From Escherichia phage momo, in sequence record MN850580.1: a stretch of 64,000 bases of DNA, one strand, 5' to 3'. Numbering within the stretch: the first letter of the stretch is position 1; each line of letters starts with the position of its first letter. Shown piece after piece: positions 2,360 to 33,984 of the stretch. A program made the translations under genes and the position numbers. The notes under the pieces are model-generated. The model made no database searches. It was not told where the DNA came from and saw only the letters and a program-made list of their open reading frames with translations.

Positions 2360-2719
2360 ATGAAACGTGAAAACATTATCCACTCTGAAAACTTCGCATT
2401 AGGCTTTTATGGTGTACCTACTCACCTTGAAAAGTATTATGGTGTAAAGATTCTTTCCAATCTCATTATGGCTTACAAAGATGGTAAGATTAAGCATACT
2501 GAGAAGAAACGTGTCATGGGCTATATGGCTGTAGGTTCAGCAATCTCGAACATTAAGTTGGAAACAACTAGCAGTCAGATTGTAAAAGACCACTTCATCA
2601 AAGAGCTTTACCAAAATCTTGATGGTGTAGATGTTCAGGCTGTTTGGCTGGATGTTGATGGTCATAATTACACAAGTTTTGTTTTCAAAAACGATGACAT
2701 TAAGTGTTTGTTCCCATAA
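2360..2719 (+). CDS. hypothetical protein
   Basis: 119-aa ORF in operon-like packing. Confidence 0.5.
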   Translation: MKRENIIHSENFALGFYGVPTHLEKYYGVKILSNLIMAYKDGKIKHTEKKRVMGYMAVGSAISNIKLETTSSQIVKDHFIKELYQNLDGVDVQAVWLDVDGHNYTSFVFKNDDIKCLFP

Positions 2720-2732
2720 TAGGTGATTAACT

Positions 2733-3248
2733 ATGATTGATATCTTCTTACAAGATGCTCATGCAGACTTCCTTAAAGAGATGCTTAAAAAGTTTATGGC
2801 TTCACAGTATGAGAATGAAGCATCTTTTAAAATAGTTACATGTGGCGACGAAGCTGGTTTTGTTGAGATTGAGCATGAAGGTACTGGAAAGACTGTTTGT
2901 AAGTTACCTGATAGTATGTTCTCTAAAACGTTCTTAACAAAGACTAGTATAAATGTTAAGCTTGTACCACAGATTGAAACATACTCTGGTACAGACTACC
3001 CTAAAGGTTTTAAGTCACTAATGAAGTACTTCTTAGATGACTTTGTGGGTAATCTTCTGAGGGAGGTAAAAGAAAGTCGTACAGTGTTAACTGTAGAGAA
3101 CATGGGAGGAACTATCAAGGTCACTTCTGACTGCTTTGTGATGAGCCTCTTCGACTTCGTTCCTAAGAACTTTGATGGTATTCTGGATGAAGAAGATGAC
3201 TGTGTAGACTTTATATTGGTTCTTGAGCCAGTTTTTGAGGTTAAATAG
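2733..3248 (+). CDS. hypothetical protein
   Basis: 171-aa ORF. Confidence 0.5.
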   Translation: MIDIFLQDAHADFLKEMLKKFMASQYENEASFKIVTCGDEAGFVEIEHEGTGKTVCKLPDSMFSKTFLTKTSINVKLVPQIETYSGTDYPKGFKSLMKYFLDDFVGNLLREVKESRTVLTVENMGGTIKVTSDCFVMSLFDFVPKNFDGILDEEDDCVDFILVLEPVFEVK

Positions 3249-3509
3249 ATGAAAATTGAACACTGCTATGAGTCTGATGGAACACCTATCCGATGTCCAC
3301 ATTGTGGGTGTACAGACTTACAAGGTGAGGTAAGTGAAATAGTCAACGGTCATATTGCTGAAGAGAGTACAAGGTGTACAGGATGTAATGAAATCATTGC
3401 TTTCTGGGCTTATGGTTCATACCAACCTACACCACACTTAATCTACCATAGCAATAAAGCTGTGAAGAATGTTATCAACTGGTTCATTAAGAAAGGATTT
3501 ACAAAATGA
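3249..3509 (+). CDS. small zinc-ribbon protein
   Basis: CPHCGC ... CTGCNE cysteine pairs. Confidence 0.45.
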   Translation: MKIEHCYESDGTPIRCPHCGCTDLQGEVSEIVNGHIAEESTRCTGCNEIIAFWAYGSYQPTPHLIYHSNKAVKNVINWFIKKGFTK

Positions 3510-4051
3510 TTAAATTAATCTTTGCAAGTGGTGAAAATGGGGAGTTTGGTACTCCAACTGGTATGCCGTGGCCTCGACATAAACAGGATATGCAAGAGTT
3601 TAAGAGACTCACTAAAAACAACTTAGTAGTAATGGGGAATGAGACTTTCAAGACTCTGGGTAGTAAACCTTTACCAGAACGTGCAAACCTCATCTTAACA
3701 AACTCTGTACCATACTTAGGCATAGACTTTGGCAAAGATGAGGTAATGTATGCTAAGGCCAGCAAAGAATCCTTTGGAGCATTTTTGAAGTATCTCGATA
3801 GCTCTATTGATGAAGATATCTTTGTAATTGGTGGTGCAGGTGTCCTTGTCAATGCTTTACCATATGCTGGTGTAGTTTTCCATACAGTTTTCCATAAAGT
3901 TACTGAAGAGGCCACTGTGTATTTACCTTTTGAAAACTTCTTTGAGAAGCTGTATGATAACCGTGTATTTACAAAGGTACAGTCAAAACCATCAGAGGAT
4001 GGTAAAGCAACCTTTGAAATTTATGTTCCACAAGTAAAAGGACACTTTTGA
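3506..4051 (+). CDS. frd: dihydrofolate reductase
   Basis: GTPTGMPWPRHKQDMQEFKRLT, VVMGNETFKTLG, FVIGGAGV motifs typical of DHFR; overlaps thymidylate synthase gene. Confidence 0.8.
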   Translation: MIKLIFASGENGEFGTPTGMPWPRHKQDMQEFKRLTKNNLVVMGNETFKTLGSKPLPERANLILTNSVPYLGIDFGKDEVMYAKASKESFGAFLKYLDSSIDEDIFVIGGAGVLVNALPYAGVVFHTVFHKVTEEATVYLPFENFFEKLYDNRVFTKVQSKPSEDGKATFEIYVPQVKGHF

Positions 4052-4052
4052 T

Positions 4053-4952
4053 ATGTCACAAGCAGATACAAGTTACAAAAATATCCTGAACCATGTTTTA
4101 TCCGTTGGTGAACTGCGTACTACAAGAACTGGAGATGTTATCTCTGCATTTGCTCCACCACAGTTTCGCTTTGATATGCGTACTGGTTTTCCACTCTTAA
4201 CATCTAAACAGGTGTTTACACGGCAAGTTATTGGGGAAGCTTTATGGTTCCTGAACGGTGAGAATAAGCTTGGTGAACTTCGTTACCGTACTTGGGGTGA
4301 AAATGATGGGGAACGCTGGACTATCTGGTCAGATGATTTTAAACGCTGGTTAAGCTCTAACTATTCTTCTGAACAAGACTGGTTAGAGGATGCAGGTGGG
4401 AGAATCTACGGGGTTCAGTGGAGAAACTTTGAAGGTCATAATGGTTGTGTTGTAGACCAGTTAGAGACCTTAGTAACGAAGATGAAAGGTGATATCACAG
4501 ACCGTTACATGCTTGTTAATGCTTGGAATGCAGCAGATATTGCAGCTAACTCAATGGCTTTAGCACCTTGTCATGTTCTGTTTCAGATTTATATCACTAA
4601 CGAAGGTGAAGTTGACTTACAATGGTATCAACGTTCTGTAGACACCTTTTTAGGACTTCCGTTTAACATTGCATCTTATGGTTTTATTCTGGAAGTTCTT
4701 TGCAAGATGACTGGATACACTCCACGGTACTTGATAGGTGTCTTTGGAGATACTCAGATTTATCAGAACCATATGAAACAGGTTTATGAACTGATGAATA
4801 ATGAAGAGTTCCATGCACCTACTTTTGAGATTGGTGTGCAGCTTAACACTCTAAGTGATTTAAAACACCTTACTGCAAGTGATTTTATTGGTGGCATTAA
4901 CAACTACCAACATGCAGGGAAGATTGAAGCACCTCTGTCAGTAGGTAAGTAA
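4053..4952 (+). CDS. thyA: thymidylate synthase (ThyA family)
   Basis: RTGTG-like, LAPCH active-site cysteine, QWYQRS, FLGLPFNIASY motifs. Confidence 0.85.
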   Translation: MSQADTSYKNILNHVLSVGELRTTRTGDVISAFAPPQFRFDMRTGFPLLTSKQVFTRQVIGEALWFLNGENKLGELRYRTWGENDGERWTIWSDDFKRWLSSNYSSEQDWLEDAGGRIYGVQWRNFEGHNGCVVDQLETLVTKMKGDITDRYMLVNAWNAADIAANSMALAPCHVLFQIYITNEGEVDLQWYQRSVDTFLGLPFNIASYGFILEVLCKMTGYTPRYLIGVFGDTQIYQNHMKQVYELMNNEEFHAPTFEIGVQLNTLSDLKHLTASDFIGGINNYQHAGKIEAPLSVGK

Positions 4953-4990
4953 AACAAAAAAGGCTCCCGTAAAAAGGAGCCTTAAACTTT
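4951..4990. terminator. bidirectional hairpin terminator between convergent operons
   Basis: aggctcc-loop-ggagcct with A/T runs on both sides. Confidence 0.6.
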
Positions 4991-5360
4991 ATTTTTCAGT
5001 ATTCTTTGTGTTCTTTTCAGTAATAGCTTGGAGGGCTGATACTGATTGAGCCAGATTGTTCACACTGTCAGAGAATTTATCAAGAGTTTTGGTAAGTTTT
5101 GCGTTTTCACCCTTAACATTCTCTAACTGAACTTTCTGGTTCTCCATCCCTAGCTGAATCAGTCTCATGTCAGACTGTAAATCACGAATAGCTGAATAGT
5201 TACTTTTGGAATAATTATCTAGCTGCTGTAACTTTGTTGTGACAGATACTTCTTGCTTACCACTTGAGACTTGCATCGTGGTATACATCCCAATAACACT
5301 AAAAATACCAACTACAATTGCACCAATATTATTTTTAAAAGCTTCCTCTAGCCACTTCAT
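4989..5360 (-). CDS. membrane-anchored coiled-coil protein
   Basis: N-terminal hydrophobic helix IGAIVVGIFSVIGMY then heptad-rich region. Confidence 0.45.
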   Translation of the reverse strand: MKWLEEAFKNNIGAIVVGIFSVIGMYTTMQVSSGKQEVSVTTKLQQLDNYSKSNYSAIRDLQSDMRLIQLGMENQKVQLENVKGENAKLTKTLDKFSDSVNNLAQSVSALQAITEKNTKNTEK

Positions 5361-5555
5361 TTATTTCTCCCCCTTAAAAGCTTTTTCTAAGTTATCTACG
5401 AACTCATCATCAATAGGTGTGTCTGTTTTACTCGCAAGGTATCTTGCAAGCTTAAAGAACACTTTCTCAATCATGTATTCACTTAGAAGGGATAAAATGA
5501 GTTTCCAGAAGAAGCTACCTAGATTTTTTAGAAGAATTGCTAGGATTGTAGGCAT
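5361..5555 (-). CDS. small hypothetical protein
   Basis: 64-aa ORF abutting downstream gene. Confidence 0.35.
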   Translation of the reverse strand: MPTILAILLKNLGSFFWKLILSLLSEYMIEKVFFKLARYLASKTDTPIDDEFVDNLEKAFKGEK

Positions 5556-5634
5556 TTAATCACCTCATCAGCCAAGATGGTGAGAATACCCATAAAGAAT
5601 ATTAACACCATCTTAACAATCAGTCAACAAGGGA

Positions 5635-8166
5635 TTAAGCAGTTCTTACCCAAGCCATTAACTTGTAGAACTGGTTAGTAACACTAAATGCTGAACCAGA
5701 ACCTGTACCACCAGTGTTACCACTAACTGTATGAGTGTGAGCACCGATACCTACACTGTGAGCATGGTTACCAGCAGAAGCGGCAGTACCACTTACAGAG
5801 TGGGTGTGAGCACCGTTAGCATCGGTGTAACCCGGTCCTACACCAATACTACCACCACCACCACCAGAGTAGTGTGTAGAGTTCTGACCAATCCACGAAA
5901 TGGAATGGTTGTGGTTACCAGCAGATGAAGTAGAGCCACTTACAGAGTGAGCGTGAGCACCAGTCGTGTTAGTGTTTTTTGTTCCGTAGTCAAAAGATGA
6001 AGTGGTAGCAGAAAAACTGTGAGTGTGTGATGGTAAGTTACCAACAGCTAACGTCACAGAATCTGAACCACCTGTTGTAGCAACATCTGAACCGTTAGCT
6101 GCTGCAACCCTGATAGTTCTACCAACACCATTGTTCAGGTACGTCCAAGTTAACCCAGGCAGTGCTGTATTAGGGTTAACATTACTGTTAAACCACGTTA
6201 CAATGCCTACTGGATAGATTTTGTTAAGGTCTGTAGAGTCACTTACTGCCTGTGCAATCTTCTGGTCAGTCTCAGATTTAGTATATGCACCAATATCTGA
6301 AGGGCTTGGCTTCAAGAGACTAGTGTAATAGTAAGCAATTGTGCCAGCAACATAATCAGATGGGGCGTTGTCAGATGTCTCTGGAAACTCAAACAGTTGC
6401 ACTGTTGCATTAGATGATGACTGAACCCTAGCTGTCGTATCGTTTTGATAGTTGCCAACTACGCAATAGATGTCATAGTTATCACCAGAGGTATTAACAT
6501 ACCCAATTTGACTTACAACAGTATTCGGTGAGTTTTTCCATGCAACAACATTTAAGCCTTTTGGGTCACCATTCCCTGTCCTAAGAACAATTTCTGTCTT
6601 ACAGGCTTGGTCAACTTCGCCAAAGTTAAATCCAGCCCCCCCAAAAAGTTCAATCACCGCTGTTGAGGTGGCTTGCGGCATACTGACAGTAGCAATCTTA
6701 GCCCATTTACCAGCACCACCAGTATTGAATCCAGTGCTCCTTACTCTCAGATACCGGTTATCAGCGGATGATTTGTTATAGTATCTCTCATCAATGTTAG
6801 ACCAATCTGAAGGTTGAACTTGACCAATGATTCTAACATTTTTAGTCAGTAAGAAATCATCTAGCACATACATCGTAGTTGCAGTTGTGCTGTTATGGAT
6901 AACAAGTCTTTCTGGGTTGGATGATTCCCCATTCCCAATGTACCACCTTCTAGCACCATCAGCATTATAACCAGCAAAGTATAGCTCTCCGTCTTGTGTA
7001 GTATTCTTTAGCTGTAACAATGAGCCATTCTGATTAATAATCTGTGCAGACCTGAAAGTGTTTACATCACTTAACTTAGCAAGATTACTCAAAGTTCCTG
7101 CTGGGATGTATCTAGAGTCAATGTTAGTCCAATCTGAAGGTTGTACTTGACCAGTAATTTTCACAGTCTTAGTAGTGGTAATTACATTTGACAAAGAGAT
7201 AGTTGTACTCGTGGTGTAGTTATGTAGGTTGACTACAGAATCAGAGTTATCAGTCCCTAAGTAGAACTTGTTTGTCCCATCAGCCTTCTGCCCCAGCAAG
7301 TACAGTCCAGTTGCAGCAGTGGCATTCTTAATGACCAGCACAGCATTATCTCTGGTAATATTGAACTCTCCTACAAAATTGTTAATACCCCTGAAGGTGT
7401 TATTACCAACTAGCTGCGCAAATCTCTGATTAGCTGCTGTCTGAGTAAAGTATCTAGCATCTAAGTTAGAGAAGTCAGAAGGCTGAACTTGACCAGTGAT
7501 TTGGATTGATTTGTTCACAGAGATTAGGTTAGCTAAAATCGCTACGTATGCACCAGATTTAACGTTTTTTAAAACAAGGTTGTCTGTGCCTCTATTATCA
7601 TTACCTAGATACCACCTATTAGTACCATCTGCATCTTGACCACGAATATACAGCGGCATCCCTTGTGTAATATTCTTAGCAATAAGAGCTTCATTGTCAG
7701 AGAGAATAGCTTGAGTGGCTCTAAAGGTGTTATTTACAGCCAACCTTGCATATCTTGCATCATTCTCTTCATTAGTTCTCATCCCAAGTTCATTAGGGCT
7801 TGGCTTATTAAGAGTATGGTAAACAGTTGCAGACCTTGAAGCATCTGCAATAGTTAGTTTAAGACCATTTGCATTGATTTTAAAAGCCTTTAAAACATCC
7901 CCCATAGTAATCTCAGAAGAACCTGTAGGGTCAAATACTGCCTTACCACCATAAAGTAACTTGACAATTCCTAAGTCACCCGTCATAGTGCTACCAGCAA
8001 TCTGGACAAACCTTTCTAGTTTAAAAGATGCTAAGAAGTCTTGATAGGTCATTCGACGGTCTTCATCACCCAACATTTCAGGTCTCTTTTTAACCCTGAC
8101 ATGAAGAAGGTCGTCTGAACGAATTGTATCAATTGAGTTTAATTCACTCAACTTGTAATCTGCCAT
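5635..8166 (-). CDS. tail fiber protein (long, repeat-domain, C-terminal HxH repeats)
   Basis: Repeated ITGQVQPSDWxNID units; C-terminal HTHS/HAHS/HNHS His-x-His repeats. Confidence 0.7.
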   Translation of the reverse strand: MADYKLSELNSIDTIRSDDLLHVRVKKRPEMLGDEDRRMTYQDFLASFKLERFVQIAGSTMTGDLGIVKLLYGGKAVFDPTGSSEITMGDVLKAFKINANGLKLTIADASRSATVYHTLNKPSPNELGMRTNEENDARYARLAVNNTFRATQAILSDNEALIAKNITQGMPLYIRGQDADGTNRWYLGNDNRGTDNLVLKNVKSGAYVAILANLISVNKSIQITGQVQPSDFSNLDARYFTQTAANQRFAQLVGNNTFRGINNFVGEFNITRDNAVLVIKNATAATGLYLLGQKADGTNKFYLGTDNSDSVVNLHNYTTSTTISLSNVITTTKTVKITGQVQPSDWTNIDSRYIPAGTLSNLAKLSDVNTFRSAQIINQNGSLLQLKNTTQDGELYFAGYNADGARRWYIGNGESSNPERLVIHNSTTATTMYVLDDFLLTKNVRIIGQVQPSDWSNIDERYYNKSSADNRYLRVRSTGFNTGGAGKWAKIATVSMPQATSTAVIELFGGAGFNFGEVDQACKTEIVLRTGNGDPKGLNVVAWKNSPNTVVSQIGYVNTSGDNYDIYCVVGNYQNDTTARVQSSSNATVQLFEFPETSDNAPSDYVAGTIAYYYTSLLKPSPSDIGAYTKSETDQKIAQAVSDSTDLNKIYPVGIVTWFNSNVNPNTALPGLTWTYLNNGVGRTIRVAAANGSDVATTGGSDSVTLAVGNLPSHTHSFSATTSSFDYGTKNTNTTGAHAHSVSGSTSSAGNHNHSISWIGQNSTHYSGGGGGSIGVGPGYTDANGAHTHSVSGTAASAGNHAHSVGIGAHTHTVSGNTGGTGSGSAFSVTNQFYKLMAWVRTA

Positions 8167-8212: not shown

Positions 8213-9361
8213 TTAAGCTGTTCTCTGCCATACATACAATACGAAGGATGGCTGTTCAACACTAAATGCTTGACCAGAACCAGTTGGACCAGTTGTGCCA
8301 GAGTGCGAATGCTCACCTGCTCCGGTTACTGTTACTGTTGCTGAGTGGCTGTGGGAACCAATTGCAACAGAATGGCTGTGAGCACCAATACCAACCGTAT
8401 GATTATGCGCACCAATTGCTACAGAGTGAGTGTGGTTGTTAGCTGTTGTCAGCGTAGCTCTTGGGTCATAGCTTGCCCCCTCAACTGATAAACCTCTCCA
8501 ACCACCATCAGCATAACCACGATTAATGAATGTTGTTTGTGTTAAACCAGCAGCACTGGTTGTTCTGTTACCATAGTCATAAGTAGATACAGTCTTTGTT
8601 CCATAGTCAAACGTTGTAGTCCCTTTAGTACCGTAGTCAAAAGCACTGATAGAGGCCGTTGCACCGTGTGTGTGACCACCACCAGTGACGTATACTGAGT
8701 GAGTATGTGCAGGAATGTTGTTAACTGTCAGTGCAGTAGTCTGCGAACCAAACGTTGAGCCAACTGGCCTAGAAGCACTATCATAACCTACAAGTGCTCT
8801 TCCTTTTGAAACTAGCTCCCAAGTACCTCCACAAATTAAATATGTAGAAGGGTTTGCAGGATTCATAGAGAGATGGATAGTACCTACTGGATAAGAAGCC
8901 TGAACAGCCTTGTACAAGTTATTTACTGCTCTTGCTGTAGCATACTTATCTGCATCCTCGTTATAAAGGTTAGATGTCACCCAGTTCTGAACATTACTTA
9001 ACCCAACCTGTGCCTTAGTGGTATTGTGTGGGTTGCTCTTATCATCAATATGTTGTTGAATAAGATTATTAACCTCTTCTGAAGACATAATCTGTAGATT
9101 TGCTCTTGCCTCAGCTACATTAACAATGTCTGATAAGTTATTTTCAGCAACTAACTGGAGAGCATTAATAACGTTATCTAAACCAATTTGTGTCTTAGTA
9201 ACACCATGAGGGTTATTTCTTAGGCTTGAGTGTGGAGCAAGTAATTGCTCAAGAGTGCATCTCTTATCCTCGATACCCTGTTTAAGATGGAAGATATCAC
9301 TAAGGTCAATTGGTAAGGCTGCTTGAGGCAAGGCACTAATTTGAATTTCACCTACTGCCAT
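8213..9361 (-). CDS. tail fiber protein (HxH repeat C-terminus)
   Basis: HTHSVAIGAHNHTVGIGAHSHSVAIGSHSHS repeats. Confidence 0.7.
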   Translation of the reverse strand: MAVGEIQISALPQAALPIDLSDIFHLKQGIEDKRCTLEQLLAPHSSLRNNPHGVTKTQIGLDNVINALQLVAENNLSDIVNVAEARANLQIMSSEEVNNLIQQHIDDKSNPHNTTKAQVGLSNVQNWVTSNLYNEDADKYATARAVNNLYKAVQASYPVGTIHLSMNPANPSTYLICGGTWELVSKGRALVGYDSASRPVGSTFGSQTTALTVNNIPAHTHSVYVTGGGHTHGATASISAFDYGTKGTTTFDYGTKTVSTYDYGNRTTSAAGLTQTTFINRGYADGGWRGLSVEGASYDPRATLTTANNHTHSVAIGAHNHTVGIGAHSHSVAIGSHSHSATVTVTGAGEHSHSGTTGPTGSGQAFSVEQPSFVLYVWQRTA

Positions 9362-29066: not shown

Positions 29067-29142
29067 TGGAGAATCCGAAGGGACTCGAACCCTTATAAAC
29101 CTGTTTTGCAGACAGGCACATATCCATTTCTGTCACGGATTC
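29067..29142 (-). tRNA. tRNA-Cys (anticodon GCA)
   Basis: Hand-folded: acceptor GAAUCCG/CGGAUUC, anticodon loop CUGCAAA, T-loop UUCGAGU, CCA encoded. Confidence 0.7.
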
Positions 29143-29146
29143 AAAT

Positions 29147-29239
29147 TGGAGGAAGATACCAGACTTGAACTGGTACACCGATTTCTCAGCTACTGGCAGT
29201 TTAGCAAACTGCTCCCTTACCTTTTAGGGTTAATCTTCC
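29147..29239 (-). tRNA. tRNA-Ser (anticodon GCU), class II
   Basis: Anticodon stem GCAGU/ACUGC, loop UUGCUAA, long variable arm, T-arm ACCAG/CUGGU. Confidence 0.65.
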
Positions 29240-29240
29240 A

Positions 29241-29975
29241 TTATTTCTGTAATGCGCTCTTCATTTCTGGTGTTGCAATAGTGTCAATCACACCAGTTTT
29301 ACAAGCATCGTCAAACCAGTCTGGTAAGATACCTGCTAAGAACCCATTGATATTCGTTTTAAGGTACTCTGCAATAAGGGCAGCTTCTTCTTCAATCATC
29401 TGCACAACTTCATCTGCATAAGCTGTAATCTTTGAAATACCTTCATTAATCTTACTGACAGCTTGGTTAGCTAAATCAGAAACAGTATCAAGACCCTTAT
29501 CAATAGCATCTTGTAAGTCACTTAACACACCATTAACACTATCTAGTGTACTGTTCATCATGTCAATAGCTTTTTGACCATACTCTGTAGCAACACCCAT
29601 GATACCACTGAATGGTGTACAACCAACTTGTTCTCCTGCTGCACCCATAACATTGGAATACCCCTTTGCTACCTGCATACGTGATGAAAACTCATCAATA
29701 GATTTTTGACCGTAGTCTGTCAGAGTTTTAGTAGTTGCTGTAGTGCTTGTAAGGCTTGTTGTAAAGCTGTTTAGAAGGACTGTTGTAAGTCCAGCAGCAA
29801 CAAGTTTCTCCTTCATTGTAGGGTCTGTTACAGAACTAATAGAGCTTACAAGTGATGTAGAAGCAGCTACGGTTCCACCGAGAACTGCTGCACCAGTAAT
29901 AAGCGGGTTAGAGAACCCTTTACCAGTTTTTAAGAGATTAAAAATCTCCTTACCTTGTTCTGTCATCTCTTTCAT
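29241..29975 (-). CDS. hypothetical protein embedded in tRNA array
   Basis: Track ORF 29241..30038 uses GTG that overlaps tRNA-Phe; internal ATG at 29975 has AAGGTG RBS. Confidence 0.5.
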   Translation of the reverse strand: MKEMTEQGKEIFNLLKTGKGFSNPLITGAAVLGGTVAASTSLVSSISSVTDPTMKEKLVAAGLTTVLLNSFTTSLTSTTATTKTLTDYGQKSIDEFSSRMQVAKGYSNVMGAAGEQVGCTPFSGIMGVATEYGQKAIDMMNSTLDSVNGVLSDLQDAIDKGLDTVSDLANQAVSKINEGISKITAYADEVVQMIEEEAALIAEYLKTNINGFLAGILPDWFDDACKTGVIDTIATPEMKSALQK

Positions 29976-29991
29976 TAAGCACCTTTGAAAT

Positions 29992-30068
29992 TGGTAGTCC
30001 AGTGGGATTTGAACCCTCTTCTCATGTTTTTCAGACACGCGCTTTAACCATATAAGCTACTTGGACTA
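29992..30068 (-). tRNA. tRNA-Phe (anticodon GAA)
   Basis: Acceptor UAGUCCA/UGGACUA, anticodon stem CGUGU/ACAUG, loop CUGAAAA. Confidence 0.6.
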
Positions 30069-30073
30069 TAAAT

Positions 30074-30149
30074 TGGGGTGACCTACGGGATTTGAACCCG
30101 TATAGACCATGTTCACAGCATGGGTCATTACCGTTTATGATAAGGCCAC
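30074..30149 (-). tRNA. tRNA-His (anticodon GUG)
   Basis: Anticodon stem CCAUG/CAUGG, loop CUGUGAA, T-arm ACGGG/CCCGU. Confidence 0.7.
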
Positions 30150-30180
30150 ATTTAAGGACTCTCGCAAGAATCCTTAGAAG

Positions 30181-30256
30181 TGGCAGCGGCATAAGGATTT
30201 GAACCTTAATAGGACAGCTTCAGAGGCTGCTGCATTGCCAGTTATGCTATACCGCT
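30181..30256 (-). tRNA. tRNA-Gln (anticodon CUG)
   Basis: Acceptor AGCGGUA/UGCCGCU, D-stem GCAU/AUGC, anticodon loop CUCUGAA. Confidence 0.65.
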
Positions 30257-30261
30257 AAATT

Positions 30262-30340
30262 TGGTACTCCATATCGGATTCGAACCGATACATAACACAG
30301 ATTTTAAGTCTGGCCTCTCTGCCAATTGGAGTAATGGAGC
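30262..30340 (-). tRNA. tRNA with leucine anticodon UAA, class-I length (short variable loop)
   Basis: Acceptor GCUCCAU/AUGGAGU, T-arm AUCGG/CCGAU, anticodon loop CUUAAAA, 7-nt variable loop. Confidence 0.5.
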
Positions 30341-30341
30341 A

Positions 30342-30417
30342 TTGGCGGGGGATGTTGGAATTGAACCAACTTCTTCGATTTCAAAGACCGAGGTTTTAAC
30401 CTTGTAAACTAATCCCC
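30342..30417 (-). tRNA. tRNA-Gln (anticodon UUG)
   Basis: Anticodon stem UCGGU/AUCGA, loop CUUUGAA, T-arm GUUGG/CCAAC. Confidence 0.55.
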
Positions 30418-30426
30418 TTTAAATCT

Positions 30427-30984
30427 TTACTTTCTCAGTGGATGAATAAAGAATGCCAACATAACTCTTTCCCTTGAGAATGCTCTTTCTTCTGGGACAA
30501 CACTTTTTAGTTTCCATCCAACATAAATTCTCCAGTAAAACTGTTTACCAAAGATTTTAATTGACGGAATAAAAGCGAATAATCCCCAAGCATTGTTGTT
30601 CCACATTAGGAGATAACCTGTCTGATTATCTTCAGGGTCAGAACTTACGTTGATATTACCTTTCCACTTAGTAACATCTTTTACATCTCTTCCTAATACA
30701 TGGTAAGAGAAGTTATAAGCTTTGTTTCTCCAGAGCCATCCAACTCTCTGCATATAAACACCGAGCTTGCCAATCTTTCTAATCTTAGCCCATCTTTTAA
30801 TGTGACCTTCATCACCATCAATAGGGTTGTCATATGTCTCCATCCATCTGAATCCAAAAGGTAGATGCCCTTTCTTCTCACTATAGAATGGAACTACAAA
30901 AGGTGCTAAGATAACTGCTAAGGTTGCTGCCAATGGGTCTAACAAAGCTAGGAAAATCCATGAAGCATACTTCAAATATCTCAT
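30427..30984 (-). CDS. membrane protein embedded in tRNA array
   Basis: 185 aa, N-terminal hydrophobic segments (IFLALLDPLAATLAVILAPFVVPF). Confidence 0.5.
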   Translation of the reverse strand: MRYLKYASWIFLALLDPLAATLAVILAPFVVPFYSEKKGHLPFGFRWMETYDNPIDGDEGHIKRWAKIRKIGKLGVYMQRVGWLWRNKAYNFSYHVLGRDVKDVTKWKGNINVSSDPEDNQTGYLLMWNNNAWGLFAFIPSIKIFGKQFYWRIYVGWKLKSVVPEERAFSRERVMLAFFIHPLRK

Positions 30985-31003
30985 TTAAATAGCCTCTTTA
31001 AAT

Positions 31004-31079
31004 TGGCGCAGGATAAGGGATTCGAACCCCTATTAACAGCTTCGTAGACTGCTGCTCTATCCATTTGAACTAATCCTGC
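31004..31079 (-). tRNA. tRNA-Arg (anticodon ACG)
   Basis: Acceptor GCAGGAU/AUCCUGC, anticodon loop CUACGAA, T-loop UUCGAAU. Confidence 0.65.
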
Positions 31080-31084
31080 AAAAT

Positions 31085-31162
31085 TGGTGTTCCAAGACGG
31101 ATTCGAACCGTCACTAGTACAAGGTTTGAGCTTGCATCCTCTGCCAATTGGGATATTGGAAC
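31085..31162 (-). tRNA. tRNA with leucine anticodon CAA, class-I length
   Basis: Acceptor GUUCCAA/UUGGAAC, anticodon stem GCAAG/CUUGU, loop CUCAAAC, 6-nt variable loop. Confidence 0.5.
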
Positions 31163-31163
31163 A

Positions 31164-31238
31164 TGGTACTCACTAAAGGACTTGAACCTTTTTCTTCATC
31201 TTGTAAGGGTGATGTTTTACCATATAAACTAAGCGAGT
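31164..31238 (-). tRNA. tRNA-Val (anticodon UAC)
   Basis: Acceptor ACUCGCU/AGUGAGU, anticodon loop CUUACAA (one stem mismatch). Confidence 0.5.
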
Positions 31239-31242
31239 ATGA

Positions 31243-31328
31243 AAGAGGTCTGAAGTTGTGCCGCTAACTCAACTCCGTGGAATTTGTTACGGTCTTCAGT
31301 TGACACCAGCGGTCTTTCACTTGACCTC
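31243..31328. ncRNA. unassigned structured element in tRNA array (tRNA-like ends, no canonical T-loop)
   Basis: 7-nt terminal complementarity agaggtc/gacctct enclosing internal inverted repeats (ctgaag/cttcag, ccgt/acgg); no clean cloverleaf. Confidence 0.25.
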
Positions 31329-31333
31329 TGAAT

Positions 31334-31409
31334 TGGTGCTCCCACAAGGATTCGAACCCTGATAAGTTGCTTACAAGGCAACCGTAATAGCCAATTATAC
31401 GATAGGAGC
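31334..31409 (-). tRNA. tRNA-Thr (anticodon UGU)
   Basis: Acceptor GCUCCUA/UGGGAGC, anticodon stem GUUGC/GCAAC, loop CUUGUAA. Confidence 0.7.
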
Positions 31410-31416
31410 ATTAATT

Positions 31417-31491
31417 TGGAGCATCCAGAGGGAATCGAACCCTCAACCTCAGTTTGGAAGACTGTAATTTTCCCGTTTAAACTATGGATGC
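31417..31491 (-). tRNA. tRNA-Gly (anticodon UCC)
   Basis: Acceptor GCAUCCA/UGGAUGC, anticodon loop CUUCCAA, T-arm GAGGG/CCCUC. Confidence 0.65.
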
Positions 31492-31497
31492 ACTAAT

Positions 31498-31573
31498 TGG
31501 TGGAGTCACTGAGAATTGAACTCAGTTCCCAAGTTTGCAAAACTCGAATTTTAACCATATAAACTATGACCCC
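31498..31573 (-). tRNA. tRNA-Ala (anticodon UGC)
   Basis: Acceptor GGGGUCA/UGACUCC with G3-U70, anticodon loop UUUGCAA. Confidence 0.65.
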
Positions 31574-31579
31574 ATTGTT

Positions 31580-31655
31580 TGGTACAGGTGGAGGGAATTG
31601 AACCCATCGTCTTACTGATTAAGAGTCAGCCGCATAACCATTTTGCTACACCTGC
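31580..31655 (-). tRNA. tRNA-Lys (anticodon CUU)
   Basis: Acceptor GCAGGUG/CACCUGU, anticodon stem GCUGA/UCAGU, loop CUCUUAA; T-stem has two non-canonical pairs. Confidence 0.55.
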
Positions 31656-31662
31656 ATTAATT

Positions 31663-31740
31663 TGGTAGGAGACAAGGGATTCGAACCCTCAAACATCTCG
31701 TTCTAAGCGAGATAGGTTTACCAATTACCGTCAATCTCCC
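31663..31740 (-). tRNA. tRNA with leucine anticodon UAG, class-I length
   Basis: Clean fold: acceptor GGGAGAU/GUCUCCU, anticodon stem UCUCG/CGAGA, loop CUUAGAA, 5-nt variable loop. Confidence 0.55.
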
Positions 31741-31998
31741 ATTAAATCTTTTTAGAGAACTTCTAAGAACCTAAGCAACAAGGTTCCACAACAAGCTGTA
31801 ATAACCTTAGAAGCCCTCTAAAAAGACCTAAAAAGGTCTTTGCATAGTCTTGTTTAATCCGGTGACTAGAACCTTTGGAGAGCTTGATATTATCTCTTCT
31901 CCGTGACACCTACTAGGTGCTTTACTGTGCGTGTACGACAATACACTAGGGATACCAAAGCAACATCCGAATGAAGCTTGGCTTTAAATCTTATTAGG

Positions 31999-32086
31999 CG
32001 GTAAGTAAAGGAGTCGAACCCTCACCGTATCTCTACAGTGGCAACTGTTTTCAAGACAGTTTGGCTACCATTAGCCGCTACCTACC
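31999..32086 (-). tRNA. tRNA-Ser (anticodon UGA), class II
   Basis: Acceptor GGUAGGU/ACUUACC, anticodon stem ACUGU/ACAGU, loop CUUGAAA, about 20-nt variable arm. Confidence 0.6.
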
Positions 32087-32098
32087 CCTAATAAGACT

Positions 32099-32181
32099 TT
32101 GGCATGGGACGGAGGAGTTGAACCACTTTGAAACGGTTTTGGAGGCCGTTGCTCATGCCTTAGAGTCTTAACATCGTCCCA
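32099..32181 (-). tRNA. tRNA candidate, possibly Trp (anticodon CCA), atypical D region
   Basis: Acceptor GUGGGAC/GUCCCAU, CCA encoded, loop CUCCAAA resembling tRNA-Trp; D region about 7 nt longer than usual. Confidence 0.35.
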
Positions 32182-32325
32182 CACTATAATTCGAAGCTTA
32201 CCGTATTTTCACAACACTGTAAAGCCCCTTCTCAGATTATTTACATGTTCTGGAAAACATGAGATACAGACCACCTCCTTACACGGAGACCCGATAAGGT
32301 CGTCTAAGTAATCTGCTAACTAAAT

Positions 32326-32404
32326 TGGTCGAGGCGGCAGGACTCGAACCCGCATACTCCACTTACTCGGTTAACGGCGGTTTAGAAGACCGCTGAGATA
32401 CGCC
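32326..32404 (-). tRNA. tRNA candidate, possibly Arg (anticodon UCU), atypical
   Basis: Acceptor CGGGGCG/CGCCUCG, T-arm GCGGG/CCUGC, hairpin GCGGU-CUUCUAA-ACCGC, but D-arm not resolvable. Confidence 0.35.
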
Positions 32405-32655
32405 CCGTAATTATCTTTAAAGACTCTCTTAGAAAGCCCTTAAAGATGCCCACCTTATTAATCATACCGTGGGCTAGTACGCCAAATTCTTTGATGAGGG
32501 ATTGGAAGACCTCACTGGTGTTTAGCCTATCAAGCTACTGCCAGAAAAACATTGTCGTTTGCATTTATTTTAAATTTGCAAAATAGACGCTACGCAACGA
32601 AAACTAAGGTTACTATAAAGTAGTCGCATCTCAATGTCAACAACTTTATTGAAAT

Positions 32656-32731
32656 TGGTACTGGTAGGTGGAATCGAACCACCGATGTTCCCTTATCAGG
32701 GGAGTGTTATAACCTTCTTAACTATACCAGC
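32656..32731 (-). tRNA. tRNA-Ile (anticodon GAU)
   Basis: Acceptor GCUGGUA/UACCAGU, D-stem GUUA/UAAC, anticodon loop CUGAUAA. Confidence 0.65.
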
Positions 32732-32732
32732 T

Positions 32733-32809
32733 TGGAGGTTCAGATGGGAATCGAACCCACATTCATAGGGCTTATGAGACCCTTGCATTACCTTATCTGC
32801 GACTGAACC
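32733..32809 (-). tRNA. tRNA-Met type (anticodon CAU)
   Basis: Acceptor GGUUCAG/CUGAACC, anticodon stem AGGGU/GCCCU, loop CUCAUAA. Confidence 0.6.
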
Positions 32810-32813
32810 ATAT

Positions 32814-32889
32814 TGGTAGAAGTGGAGGGATTCGAACCCATCGCCTGTCAGATTAAAAGTCTGCCGCATCACCATTCTGCTACACTTCC
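32814..32889 (-). tRNA. tRNA-Lys (anticodon UUU)
   Basis: Acceptor GGAAGUG/CACUUCU, anticodon loop CUUUUAA; same T-stem irregularity as tRNA-Lys(CUU). Confidence 0.55.
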
Positions 32890-32896
32890 ATTAAAT

Positions 32897-33035
32897 TATC
32901 TTTGTAGATAAGCTACCCAGACTTGCTTAAGGTCTGTAGCGATGTGACTTTTTGGGTTTAAATCTAGAATTTACCCTTTCACCCTTTGTGGTCGCATACT
33001 CACAGGTAAGCTTAATAACTTATCTACAAAGATAA
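32897..33035. repeat. 17-bp perfect inverted repeat bracketing about 105 bp of non-coding sequence
   Basis: ttatctttgtagataag at 32897-32913 and reverse complement cttatctacaaagataa at 33019-33035. Confidence 0.6.
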
Positions 33036-33320
33036 TTACCAGACCGTTGTTTATCATCTTAAGTGCTACCATTACACCAACTCGACCTCTGCCGAGTGAA
33101 GGAATCGAACCTTCGCCTTTTCTTTACCGAGAAATAGATTGTTTAAGTTTTGCTGTAAACGGTCTTCTGTAAATTTGTTGAGCCAGACCAAGTTTTAAAT
33201 TTTTTCAAAATTGAATTGGCTTGAAAATATCATACATTCTTGCTGTATTTGGTCTTCTACTCCTTTAAAGAATACTCGTAAGAACTCTTTAAGGGAGGGG
33301 CTAAATAGCCCTCTCAAAAT

Positions 33321-33398
33321 TGGCGGTTACGAAGGGATTTGAACCCTCATCATCTCCCGTGACAGGGGAGTATTTTAACCAAATTAAACTACATAACC
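33321..33398 (-). tRNA. tRNA-Asp (anticodon GUC)
   Basis: Acceptor GGUUAUG/CGUAACC, anticodon stem CUCCC/GGGAG, loop CUGUCAC. Confidence 0.7.
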
Positions 33399-33403
33399 TT
33401 TAT

Positions 33404-33491
33404 TGGTGTGCCGTGTAGGAGTCGAACCTACCGAGTCTCAATGACAAGGGATTTACAGTCCCCACCGCTACCATCTACGGGATAACGACAC
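33404..33491 (-). tRNA. tRNA-Tyr (anticodon GUA), class II
   Basis: Acceptor GUGUCGU/ACGGCAC, anticodon stem GGGGA/UCCCU, loop CUGUAAA, long variable arm. Confidence 0.65.
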
Positions 33492-33499
33492 ATTTAATT

Positions 33500-33576
33500 T
33501 GGCGGTTAGTCAGGGATTCGAACCCTGTGCCATTCGCTTAACAGGCGACCGCACATACCTTATGTGCTTCCTAACC
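33500..33576 (-). tRNA. tRNA-Asn (anticodon GUU)
   Basis: D-stem GCAC/GUGC, anticodon loop CUGUUAA, T-arm CAGGG/CCCUG. Confidence 0.65.
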
Positions 33577-33654
33577 TTAATACATTGCCAGACCGTGTTT
33601 TTTCTTTTATCCGCAAAAAAGTATTTTGTTGCTGAATACGGTCTTCTGCAAAAT

Positions 33655-33731
33655 TGGAGGCGGGTGCAGGAGTCGAACCTGCCGATACCATGCTAATGAG
33701 ACATGTGAGACGCCCTTTCTCTATACCCGCA
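33655..33731 (-). tRNA. tRNA-Met type (anticodon CAU), second copy
   Basis: T-arm GCAGG/CCUGC, anticodon stem CAUGU/GCAUG, loop CUCAUUA (U at 37 unusual). Confidence 0.5.
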
Positions 33732-33822
33732 ATTCTTAATGACCAGACCAAATCTCTTCTTTGTCCGATTTACCTTCAGATGAATAAGATTAAGTTTGCT
33801 GTAATTGGTCTTCTGTCAAAAC

Positions 33823-33900
33823 TGGCGTTCCAGAAGGGATTTGAACCCTCAGATATCCACTTTGAAAGAGTGGTGACTATACCATTTTGTCTACTGGAAC
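33823..33900 (-). tRNA. tRNA-Glu (anticodon UUC)
   Basis: Acceptor GUUCCAG/CUGGAAC, anticodon stem CCACU/AGUGG, loop CUUUCAA. Confidence 0.7.
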
Positions 33901-33907
33901 ATTAATT

Positions 33908-33984
33908 TGGTCTCTGTTGGAGGACTTGAACCTCCGGCCTTACCGCCCCAAACGGAACGCTCTACCAATCTGAGCTAAACAGAG
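33908..33984 (-). tRNA. tRNA-Pro (anticodon UGG)
   Basis: Acceptor CUCUGUU/AACAGAG, D-stem GCUC/GAGC, anticodon loop UUUGGGG, T-arm GGAGG/CCUCC. Confidence 0.7.

What the first reader, a model, noticed from the sequence alone, without database searches (positions are those of the whole stretch)
3506..4952. Overlapping DHFR and thymidylate synthase genes closing the early + strand block
Classic phage thymidylate-synthesis pair with a 2-nt gap, ending at a bidirectional terminator shared with the convergent tail-fiber operon. Expected for a virulent phage; noted for completeness and as a marker of genome type.
Basis: established knowledge. Interest (0 to 1): 0.2.

Follow-up and report, generated by a model that had tools for sequence, protein, structure and literature searches.

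The report
Felix O1-type phage DHFR–thymidylate synthase pair
This is the ordinary, already-annotated pair of phage genes (dihydrofolate reductase followed by thymidylate synthase) that lets a Felix O1-like virus make its own thymidine nucleotides; the only mildly unusual point is that the synthase carries a few lineage-specific changes in its substrate pocket.

Summary
The window is a Felixounavirus (Felix O1-like) genome, 96–99% identical to many GenBank phages in which these two genes are already annotated. ORF 3506–4051 is a DHFR (Pfam 3e-22, PHROG 1e-52) and ORF 4053–4952 is a ThyA-type thymidylate synthase (Pfam 3e-73, above the TIGR03284 equivalog cutoff). Catalytic residues are intact and both genes are under strong purifying selection. 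The two genes do not overlap and the gap is 1 nt, not 2. The real 4-nt overlap is between the upstream 86-aa ORF and DHFR. The hairpin at 4960–4983 is real and is the published Felix O1 t79/t80 terminator. It directly abuts two small membrane-protein genes rather than the tail-fibre gene. Felix O1 RT-PCR puts DHFR and TS in the delayed-early and middle classes. The TS groups with true synthases, not hydroxymethylases: it has His147 and Asn177, a DHFR partner, and relatives' DNA is unmodified. One oddity: all Ounavirinae TS have Tyr for Arg127', usually Gln for His207, and a 1–2-residue C-terminal extension, none of which occurs in 76 other viral TS. Side observation: the terminator loop has flipped repeatedly among relatives. 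Low interest; already known.

The parts
3249..3509 (+). Upstream 86-aa ORF of unknown function with CxxC...CxxC cysteines. Its stop overlaps the DHFR start codon (ATGA, 3506-3509). It is part of a tightly packed gene chain: 2733-3248, 3249-3509, 3506-4051, 4053-4952.
   Evidence: phrog_2993 (unknown function) E=2.4e-42; no Pfam hit
3493..3497 (+). Shine-Dalgarno-like AAGGA, 8 nt upstream of the DHFR ATG
   Evidence: read directly from the sequence
3506..4051 (+). Dihydrofolate reductase gene (181 aa), orthologue of Felix O1 ORF81
   Evidence: PF00186 3.3e-22 (79 bits, cutoff 25); phrog_316 1.1e-52; PDB DHFRs to 3.5e-13. Residues equivalent to E. coli D27, W22, F31, M42-G43-T46, L54, R57, I94-G95-G96 and T113 are conserved. 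dN/dS 0.03-0.30.
3930..3958 (+). Sigma-70-like TTGAAA-17-TATGAT inside the 3' end of the DHFR gene, about 95 nt upstream of the TS ATG. Possible internal promoter for TS; not demonstrated.
   Evidence: Best match (10/12) in the scan. Hexamers are invariant in all Felixounavirus haplotypes while nearby wobble positions vary. phiEa21-4 has a perfect TTGACA-16-TATAAT at the equivalent place, annotated as a promoter.
4038..4042 (+). Shine-Dalgarno-like AAGGA inside the end of the DHFR gene, 10 nt upstream of the TS ATG
   Evidence: read directly from the sequence
4053..4952 (+). ThyA-type thymidylate synthase gene (299 aa), uninterrupted (no intron), orthologue of Felix O1 ORF80
   Evidence: PF00303 2.9e-73 (247 bits); TIGR03284 204 bits against a cutoff of 108; phrog_160 5.3e-96; PDB TS to 5e-49. 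Has R25, E62, W92, Y119, R151, C173-H174, Q193-R194-S195, D197, N205 and Y237; deviations are Y152 (Eco R127), Q235 (Eco H207) and a C-terminal +GK. dN/dS 0.01-0.15.
4960..4983 (.). Two-way intrinsic-terminator hairpin (8-bp stem, 8-nt loop) flanked by an A-run (4953-4959) and a T-rich run (4988-4996). Same element as Felix O1 t79/t80.
   Evidence: PMC3185647 Table 2; annotated as terminators on both strands in phage ASO1B; stem conserved in 31 relatives including phiEa21-4
4989..5360 (-). Convergent 123-aa ORF (N-terminal transmembrane helix plus coiled coil). This is the gene that actually abuts the terminator on the minus strand. A relative annotates it as 'holin'.
   Evidence: phrog_4038 (unknown function)
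5361..5555 (-). 64-aa hydrophobic ORF upstream of the 123-aa ORF
   Evidence: phrog_402 (unknown function)
5599..5627 (-). Conserved promoter-like TTGACT-17-TAATAT (TG-extended), between the tail-fibre gene stop and the small-ORF pair
5635..8166 (-). Tail-fibre gene (843 aa), the nearest tail-fibre gene to the convergence point
   Evidence: annotation in relatives

Best explanation
The two ORFs are the functional folate and thymidylate module of a Felix O1-like virulent myovirus. The ThyA enzyme methylates dUMP to dTMP, using 5,10-methylene-tetrahydrofolate as both carbon donor and reductant, and releases dihydrofolate. The DHFR encoded immediately upstream reduces dihydrofolate back to tetrahydrofolate with NADPH. 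Together they keep dTMP synthesis running for replication of an A+T-rich, unmodified genome.

The genes are the last two of a tightly packed rightward chain (0-nt, -4-nt and +1-nt junctions, each with its own AAGGA ribosome-binding site), so they are probably co-transcribed and translationally coupled. TS may also have a promoter of its own inside the end of the DHFR gene. Transcription ends at a hairpin that also stops the converging leftward unit.

Shown here: gene identity, intact catalytic residues, purifying selection, conserved synteny and hairpin stability. Inferred: enzymatic activity, coupling, promoter use and termination.
For: The profile matches are far above curated cutoffs, and both proteins match solved TS and DHFR sequences.

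The TS is 36% identical to E. coli ThyA and to T4 td, but only 19% and 25% identical to the T4 dCMP and SPO1 dUMP hydroxymethylases. It carries the synthase-type residues Cys146-His147, Gln165, Asn177 and the LPFNIASY motif, where the hydroxymethylases differ. Positions 147 and 177 are the two that best separate synthases of unmodified genomes from base-modifying homologues (PMC8670742).

Only a true synthase produces dihydrofolate and so needs a DHFR partner (PMC4528723). DHFR sits directly upstream in this phage, in all 31 relatives, in T4, and in 33 of 76 diverse viral ThyA loci.

The DHFR keeps the catalytic Asp and the NADPH and folate motifs. Its departures from E. coli (Tyr100 to Leu and others) are shared with the active T4 enzyme.

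dN/dS is 0.01-0.15 for TS and 0.03-0.30 for DHFR.

DNA of the close relative VpaE1 is cut by all six restriction enzymes tested and is reported to be unmodified (PMC4690856). The Felixounavirus Bas63 is highly sensitive to restriction-modification systems (PMC8594841).

The terminator and the convergent transcription units are described for Felix O1 (PMC3185647).
Against: No enzyme from this lineage has been assayed.

The TS departs from near-universal TS features at three places. Arg127' is Tyr in 32 of 32 Ounavirinae. His207 is Gln in 31 of 32. The C-terminus is 1-2 residues longer than usual. By contrast, 76 other viral TS have Arg (75) or Lys (1) at 127, His (76) at 207, and 74 of them end at the canonical position.

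On the + strand the T-run is separated from the hairpin by AAAC, so termination of the DHFR-TS transcript may be leaky.

Felix O1 RT-PCR gives different peak times for the two genes (10 min versus 25 min), so simple co-transcription is not the whole story.
Confidence: 0.93

Rival explanations
1. The ThyA homologue is not a canonical thymidylate synthase. With a remodelled nucleotide pocket and C-terminal lid, it makes a different product (for example 5-hydroxymethyl-dUMP) or uses a different nucleotide substrate.
For: There are lineage-specific changes at three sites that contact the dUMP phosphate (Arg127' to Tyr), the 3'-OH (His207 to Gln) and the lid that closes the active site (C-terminal +1/2 residues, with length varying among close relatives). 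These changes are absent from 76 other viral TS. The SPO1 hydroxymethylase also lacks Arg at the 127 position, where it has Gln.
Against: His147, Asn177, Gln165, Tyr94, Trp80 and the full LPFNIASY folate/dUMP motif are synthase-type, and identity to hydroxymethylases is only 19-25%. A conserved, abutting DHFR makes sense only if dihydrofolate is produced (PMC4528723). A natural TS with Gly at Arg127' is enzymatically active, and mutagenesis shows this position is permissive (PMC6005164). phiEa21-4 keeps His207. VpaE1 DNA is reported unmodified with no modification genes (PMC4690856). No dTTP-exclusion genes are reported for Felix O1 (PMC3185647).
Confidence: 0.04
2. The two proteins mainly serve a non-enzymatic role as virion (baseplate) components. 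This was once proposed for T4 DHFR and TS (recalled from the older T4 literature).
For: The genes lie next to the tail-fibre and baseplate block. There is an analogy with older T4 claims (own knowledge, not tested here).
Against: Felix O1 virion proteomics lists 17 structural proteins. Gp80 and Gp81 are not among them (PMC3185647 abstract). The genes are on the opposite strand from the structural block and are not expressed late. Conservation of the catalytic residues argues for enzymatic function.
Confidence: 0.01
3. The genes are dispensable or decaying cargo with no current function.
For: By analogy, T4 td and frd are non-essential on wild-type hosts (own knowledge). No essentiality data for this pair were found.
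Against: Both genes are intact in all 32 Ounavirinae examined. They show strong purifying selection despite synonymous saturation (dS above 1 against the 80%-identity genera).
Confidence: 0.02

Closest known systems
Felix O1 ORF81 (DHFR) and ORF80 (thymidylate synthase) with terminators t79/t80 (PMC3185647)
   Same: These are orthologues. The gene order is the same and the junction is the same as in the other Felixounavirus relatives examined. They sit at the same convergence point of the 96-80 and 41-79 transcription units, and the hairpin sequence is identical (ggctcctttttacgggagcc read on the late strand). The TS is 98-100% identical in protein sequence to many Felixounavirus records.
   Different: Nothing of substance. 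This window is another isolate of the genus; its TS protein is 100% identical to that of phage NBEco005.
Phage T4 frd-td (DHFR-thymidylate synthase)
   Same: The order is the same (DHFR then TS on one strand) and the genes abut. Both TS have an insertion after the 'WFL' helix and lack Trp83. The DHFRs share a one-residue insertion before the catalytic Asp, and Leu in place of Tyr100.
   Different: T4 frd and td overlap by 4 nt (ATGA); here there is a 1-nt spacer. T4 td carries a group I intron with I-TevI; this gene is uninterrupted. T4 td keeps Arg127, His207 and the canonical C-terminus. Identity is only 36% for TS and 26% for DHFR.
Vibrio parahaemolyticus / VAAP-clade thymidylate synthase (PMC6005164)
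   Same: It is a natural TS that lacks the fourth phosphate-binding arginine (E. coli Arg127'). It is shown to be active, with a raised Km for dUMP.
   Different: The VAAP enzymes have Gly at that site and are cellular. The Ounavirinae enzymes have Tyr, plus His207 to Gln and a C-terminal extension. They have not been assayed.
SPO1 gp29 dUMP hydroxymethylase and T4 gp42 dCMP hydroxymethylase
   Same: They belong to the same superfamily (PF00303 fold) and use the same catalytic Cys and folate-dependent C5 chemistry.
   Different: Identity is only 25% and 19%. They have Asn or Thr in place of His147 and lack Gln165. Their 'LPFNIASY' region and C-terminal lid are altered or absent. SPO1 gp29 has no adjacent DHFR, and hydroxymethylases in general do not need one (PMC4528723). 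gp42 has Asp at position 177.

Membership tests
Thymidylate synthase ThyA (PF00303 / TIGR03284, EC 2.1.1.45) | Full-length profile match above the curated cutoff | tested here: met
   PF00303 246.7 bits (cutoff 24.3), profile positions 2-266 of 266. TIGR03284 equivalog 204 bits (cutoff 108.35).
Thymidylate synthase ThyA (PF00303 / TIGR03284, EC 2.1.1.45) | Catalytic nucleophile Cys146 in the Pro-Cys-His motif, with His147 | tested here: met
   ALAPCH, with C173-H174; invariant in 32 Ounavirinae..
Thymidylate synthase ThyA (PF00303 / TIGR03284, EC 2.1.1.45) | Asn177, which sets dUMP rather than dCMP specificity | tested here: met
   N205 in LPFNIASY. Role of this position as described in PMC8670742.
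Thymidylate synthase ThyA (PF00303 / TIGR03284, EC 2.1.1.45) | Essential phosphate-binding arginines Arg21, Arg126' and Arg166 | tested here: met
   R25, R151 and R194 are invariant.
Thymidylate synthase ThyA (PF00303 / TIGR03284, EC 2.1.1.45) | Fourth phosphate-binding arginine, Arg127'. It is near-universal but not required for activity, so it is not a strict criterion. | tested here: not met
   Tyr152 in 32 of 32 Ounavirinae, against Arg 75 / Lys 1 in 76 other viral TS. The position is permissive in mutagenesis, and a natural Gly variant is active (PMC6005164).
Thymidylate synthase ThyA (PF00303 / TIGR03284, EC 2.1.1.45) | Ligands of the deoxyribose 3'-OH, His207 and Tyr209 | tested here: inconclusive
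   Tyr237 is present. His207 is replaced by Gln235 in 31 of 32 (phiEa21-4 keeps His). His is found in 76 of 76 other viral TS. Gln could still donate a hydrogen bond (inference).
Thymidylate synthase ThyA (PF00303 / TIGR03284, EC 2.1.1.45) | C-terminal lid ending at the E. coli Ile264 equivalent | tested here: inconclusive
   The ...IEAPLSV motif is present but followed by G or GK. 74 of 76 other viral TS end at the canonical residue.
Thymidylate synthase ThyA (PF00303 / TIGR03284, EC 2.1.1.45) | Catalysis: dUMP + CH2-THF gives dTMP + DHF | not testable with these tools
   This needs an enzyme assay or thyA complementation. Indirect support comes from the DHFR partner and from unmodified DNA in relatives.
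Dihydrofolate reductase (PF00186, EC 1.5.1.3) | Profile match above the curated cutoff | tested here: met
   79.4 bits (cutoff 25); phrog_316 1.1e-52. All specific NCBIfam DHFR models (the trimethoprim-resistance Dfr models and the type 3 DHFR equivalog) score far below their cutoffs, so it belongs to none of those named variants.
Dihydrofolate reductase (PF00186, EC 1.5.1.3) | Catalytic acid (E. coli Asp27) and folate-site residues Trp22, Phe31, Leu54 and Arg57 | tested here: met
   D28, W22, F32, L56 and R59.
Dihydrofolate reductase (PF00186, EC 1.5.1.3) | NADPH-binding motifs (M-G-x-x-T; I-G-G; Thr113) | tested here: met
   M43-G44-N-E-T47, I108-G109-G110 and T127.
Dihydrofolate reductase (PF00186, EC 1.5.1.3) | NADPH-dependent reduction of dihydrofolate | not testable with these tools
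   This needs an assay or folA complementation.
dUMP / dCMP hydroxymethylases (considered, not adopted) | Non-His at position 147, altered 165 and 176-177 region, TS C-terminal lid absent or unrelated, no DHFR partner | tested here: not met
   The window protein has His, Gln, Phe-Asn and the APLSV lid motif, with a DHFR abutting. Identity is 19-25% to gp42 and gp29.
Bidirectional intrinsic (rho-independent) terminator | Stable G+C-rich hairpin followed by a U-run on each transcript | tested here: inconclusive
   Hairpin stability is -13.9 and -18.1 kcal/mol, z = -3.7 and -4.6. The minus-strand transcript has the U-run immediately after the stem. On the plus strand the run is offset by AAAC. 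Termination itself is not testable here.

The most novel reading that the evidence does not exclude
The thymidylate synthase of Felix O1-like phages (whole subfamily Ounavirinae) has a naturally remodelled nucleotide pocket: Arg127' to Tyr, His207 to Gln, and a C-terminus lengthened by a variable 1-2 residues. This could mean it does something other than standard dTMP synthesis. It might have a different nucleotide substrate or product, or distinctive kinetics or inhibitor resistance that matter to the phage.
Probability: 0.05. Interest if true: 0.5.

Novelty: already known. Interest (0 to 1): 0.1.

Why it matters
The main value is as a genome-type marker. It confirms the window is a Felixounavirus with the standard phage dTMP-cycle module and thymine-containing DNA. 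The only point that could interest an enzymologist is that this subfamily provides a second natural class of ThyA lacking one of the four 'invariant' phosphate-binding arginines, after the active Vibrio enzyme. It also has changes at the 3'-OH ligand and the C-terminal lid. Showing that it is fully active would add to what is known about how much of the TS active site is really indispensable.

Tried and rejected
- Hydroxymethylase reading: I aligned the protein with T4 gp42 and SPO1 gp29, fetched from their genome records. It was rejected on residues 147, 165 and 177, the C-terminal motif, low identity and the DHFR partner.
- Intron or other RNA element in or near TS: the ORF is uninterrupted, and an Rfam scan of 2500-6000 gave only two sub-threshold chance hits.
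- Defence-system role: no PADLOC matches for the two enzymes, the upstream 86-aa ORF or the two small convergent ORFs.
- Named trimethoprim-resistance DHFR types: all NCBIfam Dfr models score far below their cutoffs, so no such call is justified.
- Antisense ORF 3499..3915 (138 aa, GTG start): it lies wholly inside the DHFR gene and is not annotated in the relatives examined, so I treat it as spurious.
- Gene-essentiality data for the Felixounavirus Bas63: the paper's text does not mention these genes and no supplements are held.
- Not run: the large homology searches and structure prediction. Sequence evidence was already decisive, and a monomer model cannot show Arg126'/127', which come from the partner subunit.

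Full report
**What is there.** The stated interval holds two same-strand ORFs, 3506..4051 (181 aa) and 4053..4952 (299 aa). The DNA from 3200-5400 is 96-99% identical over its full length to more than 200 phage records of the genus Felixounavirus (Felix O1-like myoviruses of Escherichia, Salmonella and Shigella). Where annotated, these records call the two genes dihydrofolate reductase and thymidylate synthase. The 299-aa protein is 100% identical to the 'thymidylate synthase' of phage NBEco005. The window as a whole has the Felix O1 layout: a short + block ending at 4952, then a long - block of tail, head and tRNA genes with 25 tRNAs.

**Identity of the proteins.**
- The 181-aa protein matches Pfam DHFR_1 (E=3.3e-22), PHROG 316 'dihydrofolate reductase' (1.1e-52) and solved DHFRs (to 3.5e-13).
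- Aligned with E. coli FolA and T4 Frd, fetched from their genome records, it keeps the catalytic Asp (D28), Trp22, Phe32, the M-G-x-x-T and I-G-G nucleotide-binding motifs, Leu56, Arg59 and Thr127. Its departures (Tyr100 to Leu, and a one-residue insertion before the Asp) are shared with the T4 enzyme.
- The 299-aa protein matches Pfam Thymidylat_synt end to end (E=2.9e-73). It exceeds the cutoff of the TIGR03284 equivalog (204 against 108 bits). It matches PHROG 160 (5.3e-96) and solved thymidylate synthases (to 5e-49).

**Synthase or hydroxymethylase?** Phage ThyA homologues can be dCMP or dUMP hydroxymethylases, so I aligned the protein with E. coli ThyA, T4 Td, T4 gp42 and SPO1 gp29.
- It is 36% identical to both true synthases, and 19% and 25% identical to the hydroxymethylases.
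- It has the synthase residues Arg21, Glu58, Trp80, Tyr94, Arg126, Cys146-His147, Gln165-Arg166-Ser167, Asp169, Asn177 and Tyr209, plus the LPFNIASY motif.
- Positions 147 and 177 are the two that best separate synthases of unmodified genomes from base-modifying homologues (PMC8670742).
- Only a true synthase oxidises the folate to dihydrofolate and so needs DHFR (PMC4528723). Here DHFR abuts the gene.
- DNA of the close relative VpaE1 is cut by all six enzymes tested and is reported to be unmodified (PMC4690856). The Felixounavirus Bas63 is 'remarkably sensitive' to restriction-modification systems (PMC8594841).
- Both genes are under strong purifying selection: TS dN/dS 0.01-0.15 and DHFR 0.03-0.30, including comparisons where synonymous sites are saturated.

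I conclude, with about 0.93 confidence, that this is a working DHFR and ThyA thymidylate cycle.

- The genes neither overlap nor have a 2-nt gap. TGA is at 4049-4051, T at 4052 and ATG at 4053, so the spacer is 1 nt. This junction is identical in 30 Felixounavirus-type loci. The more distant phiEa21-4, and T4, have a 4-nt ATGA overlap instead.
- The overlap that does exist is between the upstream 86-aa cysteine-rich ORF (3249..3509) and the DHFR start. With the 171-aa ORF before it (2733..3248), this forms a tightly packed four-gene chain.
- Each enzyme gene has an AAGGA 8-10 nt before its ATG.
- The hairpin at 4960-4983 is real, with z-scores of -3.7 and -4.6 against shuffles. It is the published Felix O1 terminator pair t79/t80 (PMC3185647 Table 2). 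It is a textbook terminator for the leftward transcript. For the rightward DHFR-TS transcript the U-run is offset by AAAC.
- The leftward genes that abut it are two small hydrophobic ORFs (123 and 64 aa; the former is annotated 'holin' in one relative, and the Felix O1 paper lists gp79, the last gene of the 41-79 unit, among its holin candidates), not the tail-fibre gene.
- Between them and the tail-fibre stop lies a strongly conserved TTGACT-17-TAATAT plus an inverted repeat. phiEa21-4 has a canonical terminator there. The small ORFs may therefore be a separate unit at the end of the late-strand block.
- Felix O1 RT-PCR places ORF81 (DHFR) at 10 min and ORF80 (TS) at 25 min, so 'early' should read delayed-early and middle.

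**How classic is the pair?** In 76 diverse viral contigs with a ThyA homologue (33-44% identical to this one), 33 have a DHFR gene upstream on the same strand, mostly abutting. None has one downstream.

**The one unusual thing.** Across 32 Ounavirinae sequences, E. coli Arg127' (one of four arginines that hold the dUMP phosphate) is always Tyr. His207 (a 3'-OH ligand) is Gln in 31 of them. The C-terminus runs 1-2 residues (G or GK) beyond the canonical end. Among the 76 other viral TS these positions are Arg 75 / Lys 1 and His 76, and 74 end at the canonical residue. Position 127' is known to tolerate substitution. The Vibrio parahaemolyticus enzyme, which naturally has Gly there, is active with a higher Km; its authors called it the first natural case (PMC6005164). 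I therefore read these changes as a lineage-specific variant of a working synthase. I leave about 5% for a real change in substrate or product.

**Things noticed on the way.**
- The 8-nt loop of the terminator occurs as CGTAAAAA in the window and 13 relatives (three more carry a one-base length variant of it), and as its reverse complement TTTTTACG in 14 others. At least 7 switches are needed on a neighbour-joining tree of the surrounding 3.9 kb. This is recurrent inversion between the perfect stem arms, and it leaves the stem, and presumably the function, unchanged.
- A sigma-70-like TTGAAA-17-TATGAT sits inside the end of the DHFR gene, about 95 nt before the TS start. Its hexamers are invariant across Felixounavirus haplotypes while neighbouring wobble positions vary. 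phiEa21-4 has a perfect consensus promoter at the equivalent place. This would fit the different peak times of the two transcripts, but it is unproven. The promoter scan as a whole is not enriched over shuffles (9 found, 7.7 expected).

**Verdict.** This is an ordinary, correctly interpreted and already published feature, with a few positional details to correct.

Noticed in passing
window 4968-4975 (loop of the hairpin at 4960-4983); loci L008-L038: The terminator loop is CGTAAAAA (or a one-base length variant) in the window and in 16 relatives, counting phiEa21-4. It is the exact reverse complement TTTTTACG in 14 relatives. The stems are identical. At least 7 orientation changes are needed on a tree of 30 taxa, so the loop has flipped repeatedly between the inverted-repeat arms.
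   Followed up: partly
window 3930-3958 (+), inside the 3' end of the DHFR gene; L038 about 2877-2904: A sigma-70-like TTGAAA-17-TATGAT lies about 95 nt upstream of the TS start. Its hexamers are invariant in all Felixounavirus haplotypes although nearby wobble positions vary. phiEa21-4 has a perfect TTGACA-16-TATAAT at the same relative position. This may be an internal promoter for TS, and would fit Felix O1 ORF81 and ORF80 peaking at 10 and 25 min.
   Followed up: partly
window 5556-5634 (-): The intergenic region between the tail-fibre stop and the 64-aa ORF is very conserved, even in genera only about 80% identical. It contains a TG-extended TTGACT-17-TAATAT, overlapped by the inverted repeat AAGATGGTG...CACCATCTT. 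phiEa21-4 has a canonical terminator there instead.
   Followed up: partly
window 4989-5360 and 5361-5555 (-): Two small ORFs with hydrophobic N-termini (123 aa with a coiled coil; 64 aa) sit between the tail-fibre gene and the terminator. Both fall in PHROG families of unknown function. One is annotated 'holin' in a relative, and the Felix O1 paper lists gp79, the last gene of the 41-79 unit, among its holin candidates.
   Followed up: no
window 4053-4952 (residues Y152, Q235, C-terminal GK): The Ounavirinae TS lack Arg127' (Tyr instead), mostly lack His207 (Gln instead), and have a 1-2-residue C-terminal extension. None of 76 other viral TS shows any of these changes.
   Followed up: yes
window 3249-3509 (+): An 86-aa ORF with two CxxC pairs (zinc-ribbon-like), of unknown function (phrog_2993). 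It is joined to DHFR by an ATGA overlap.
   Followed up: no
window 29067-33984 (-): A cluster of 25 tRNA genes, including two tRNA-Met and pairs for Gln, Lys and Ser and three for Leu. The Felix O1 paper reports 22.
   Followed up: no
window 5635-8166 and 8213-9361 (-): Both tail-fibre proteins end in histidine-rich repeats of the type (G)AH(T/S)H(S/T)V... The first also contains three internal copies of a roughly 100-aa repeat ending in 'ITGQVQPSD(F/W)(S/T)N(L/I)D(A/S/E)RY' (read from the translations).
   Followed up: no
window 3499-3915 (-): A 138-aa GTG-start antisense ORF lies entirely inside the DHFR gene. It is not annotated in the relatives examined and is very likely spurious.
   Followed up: no
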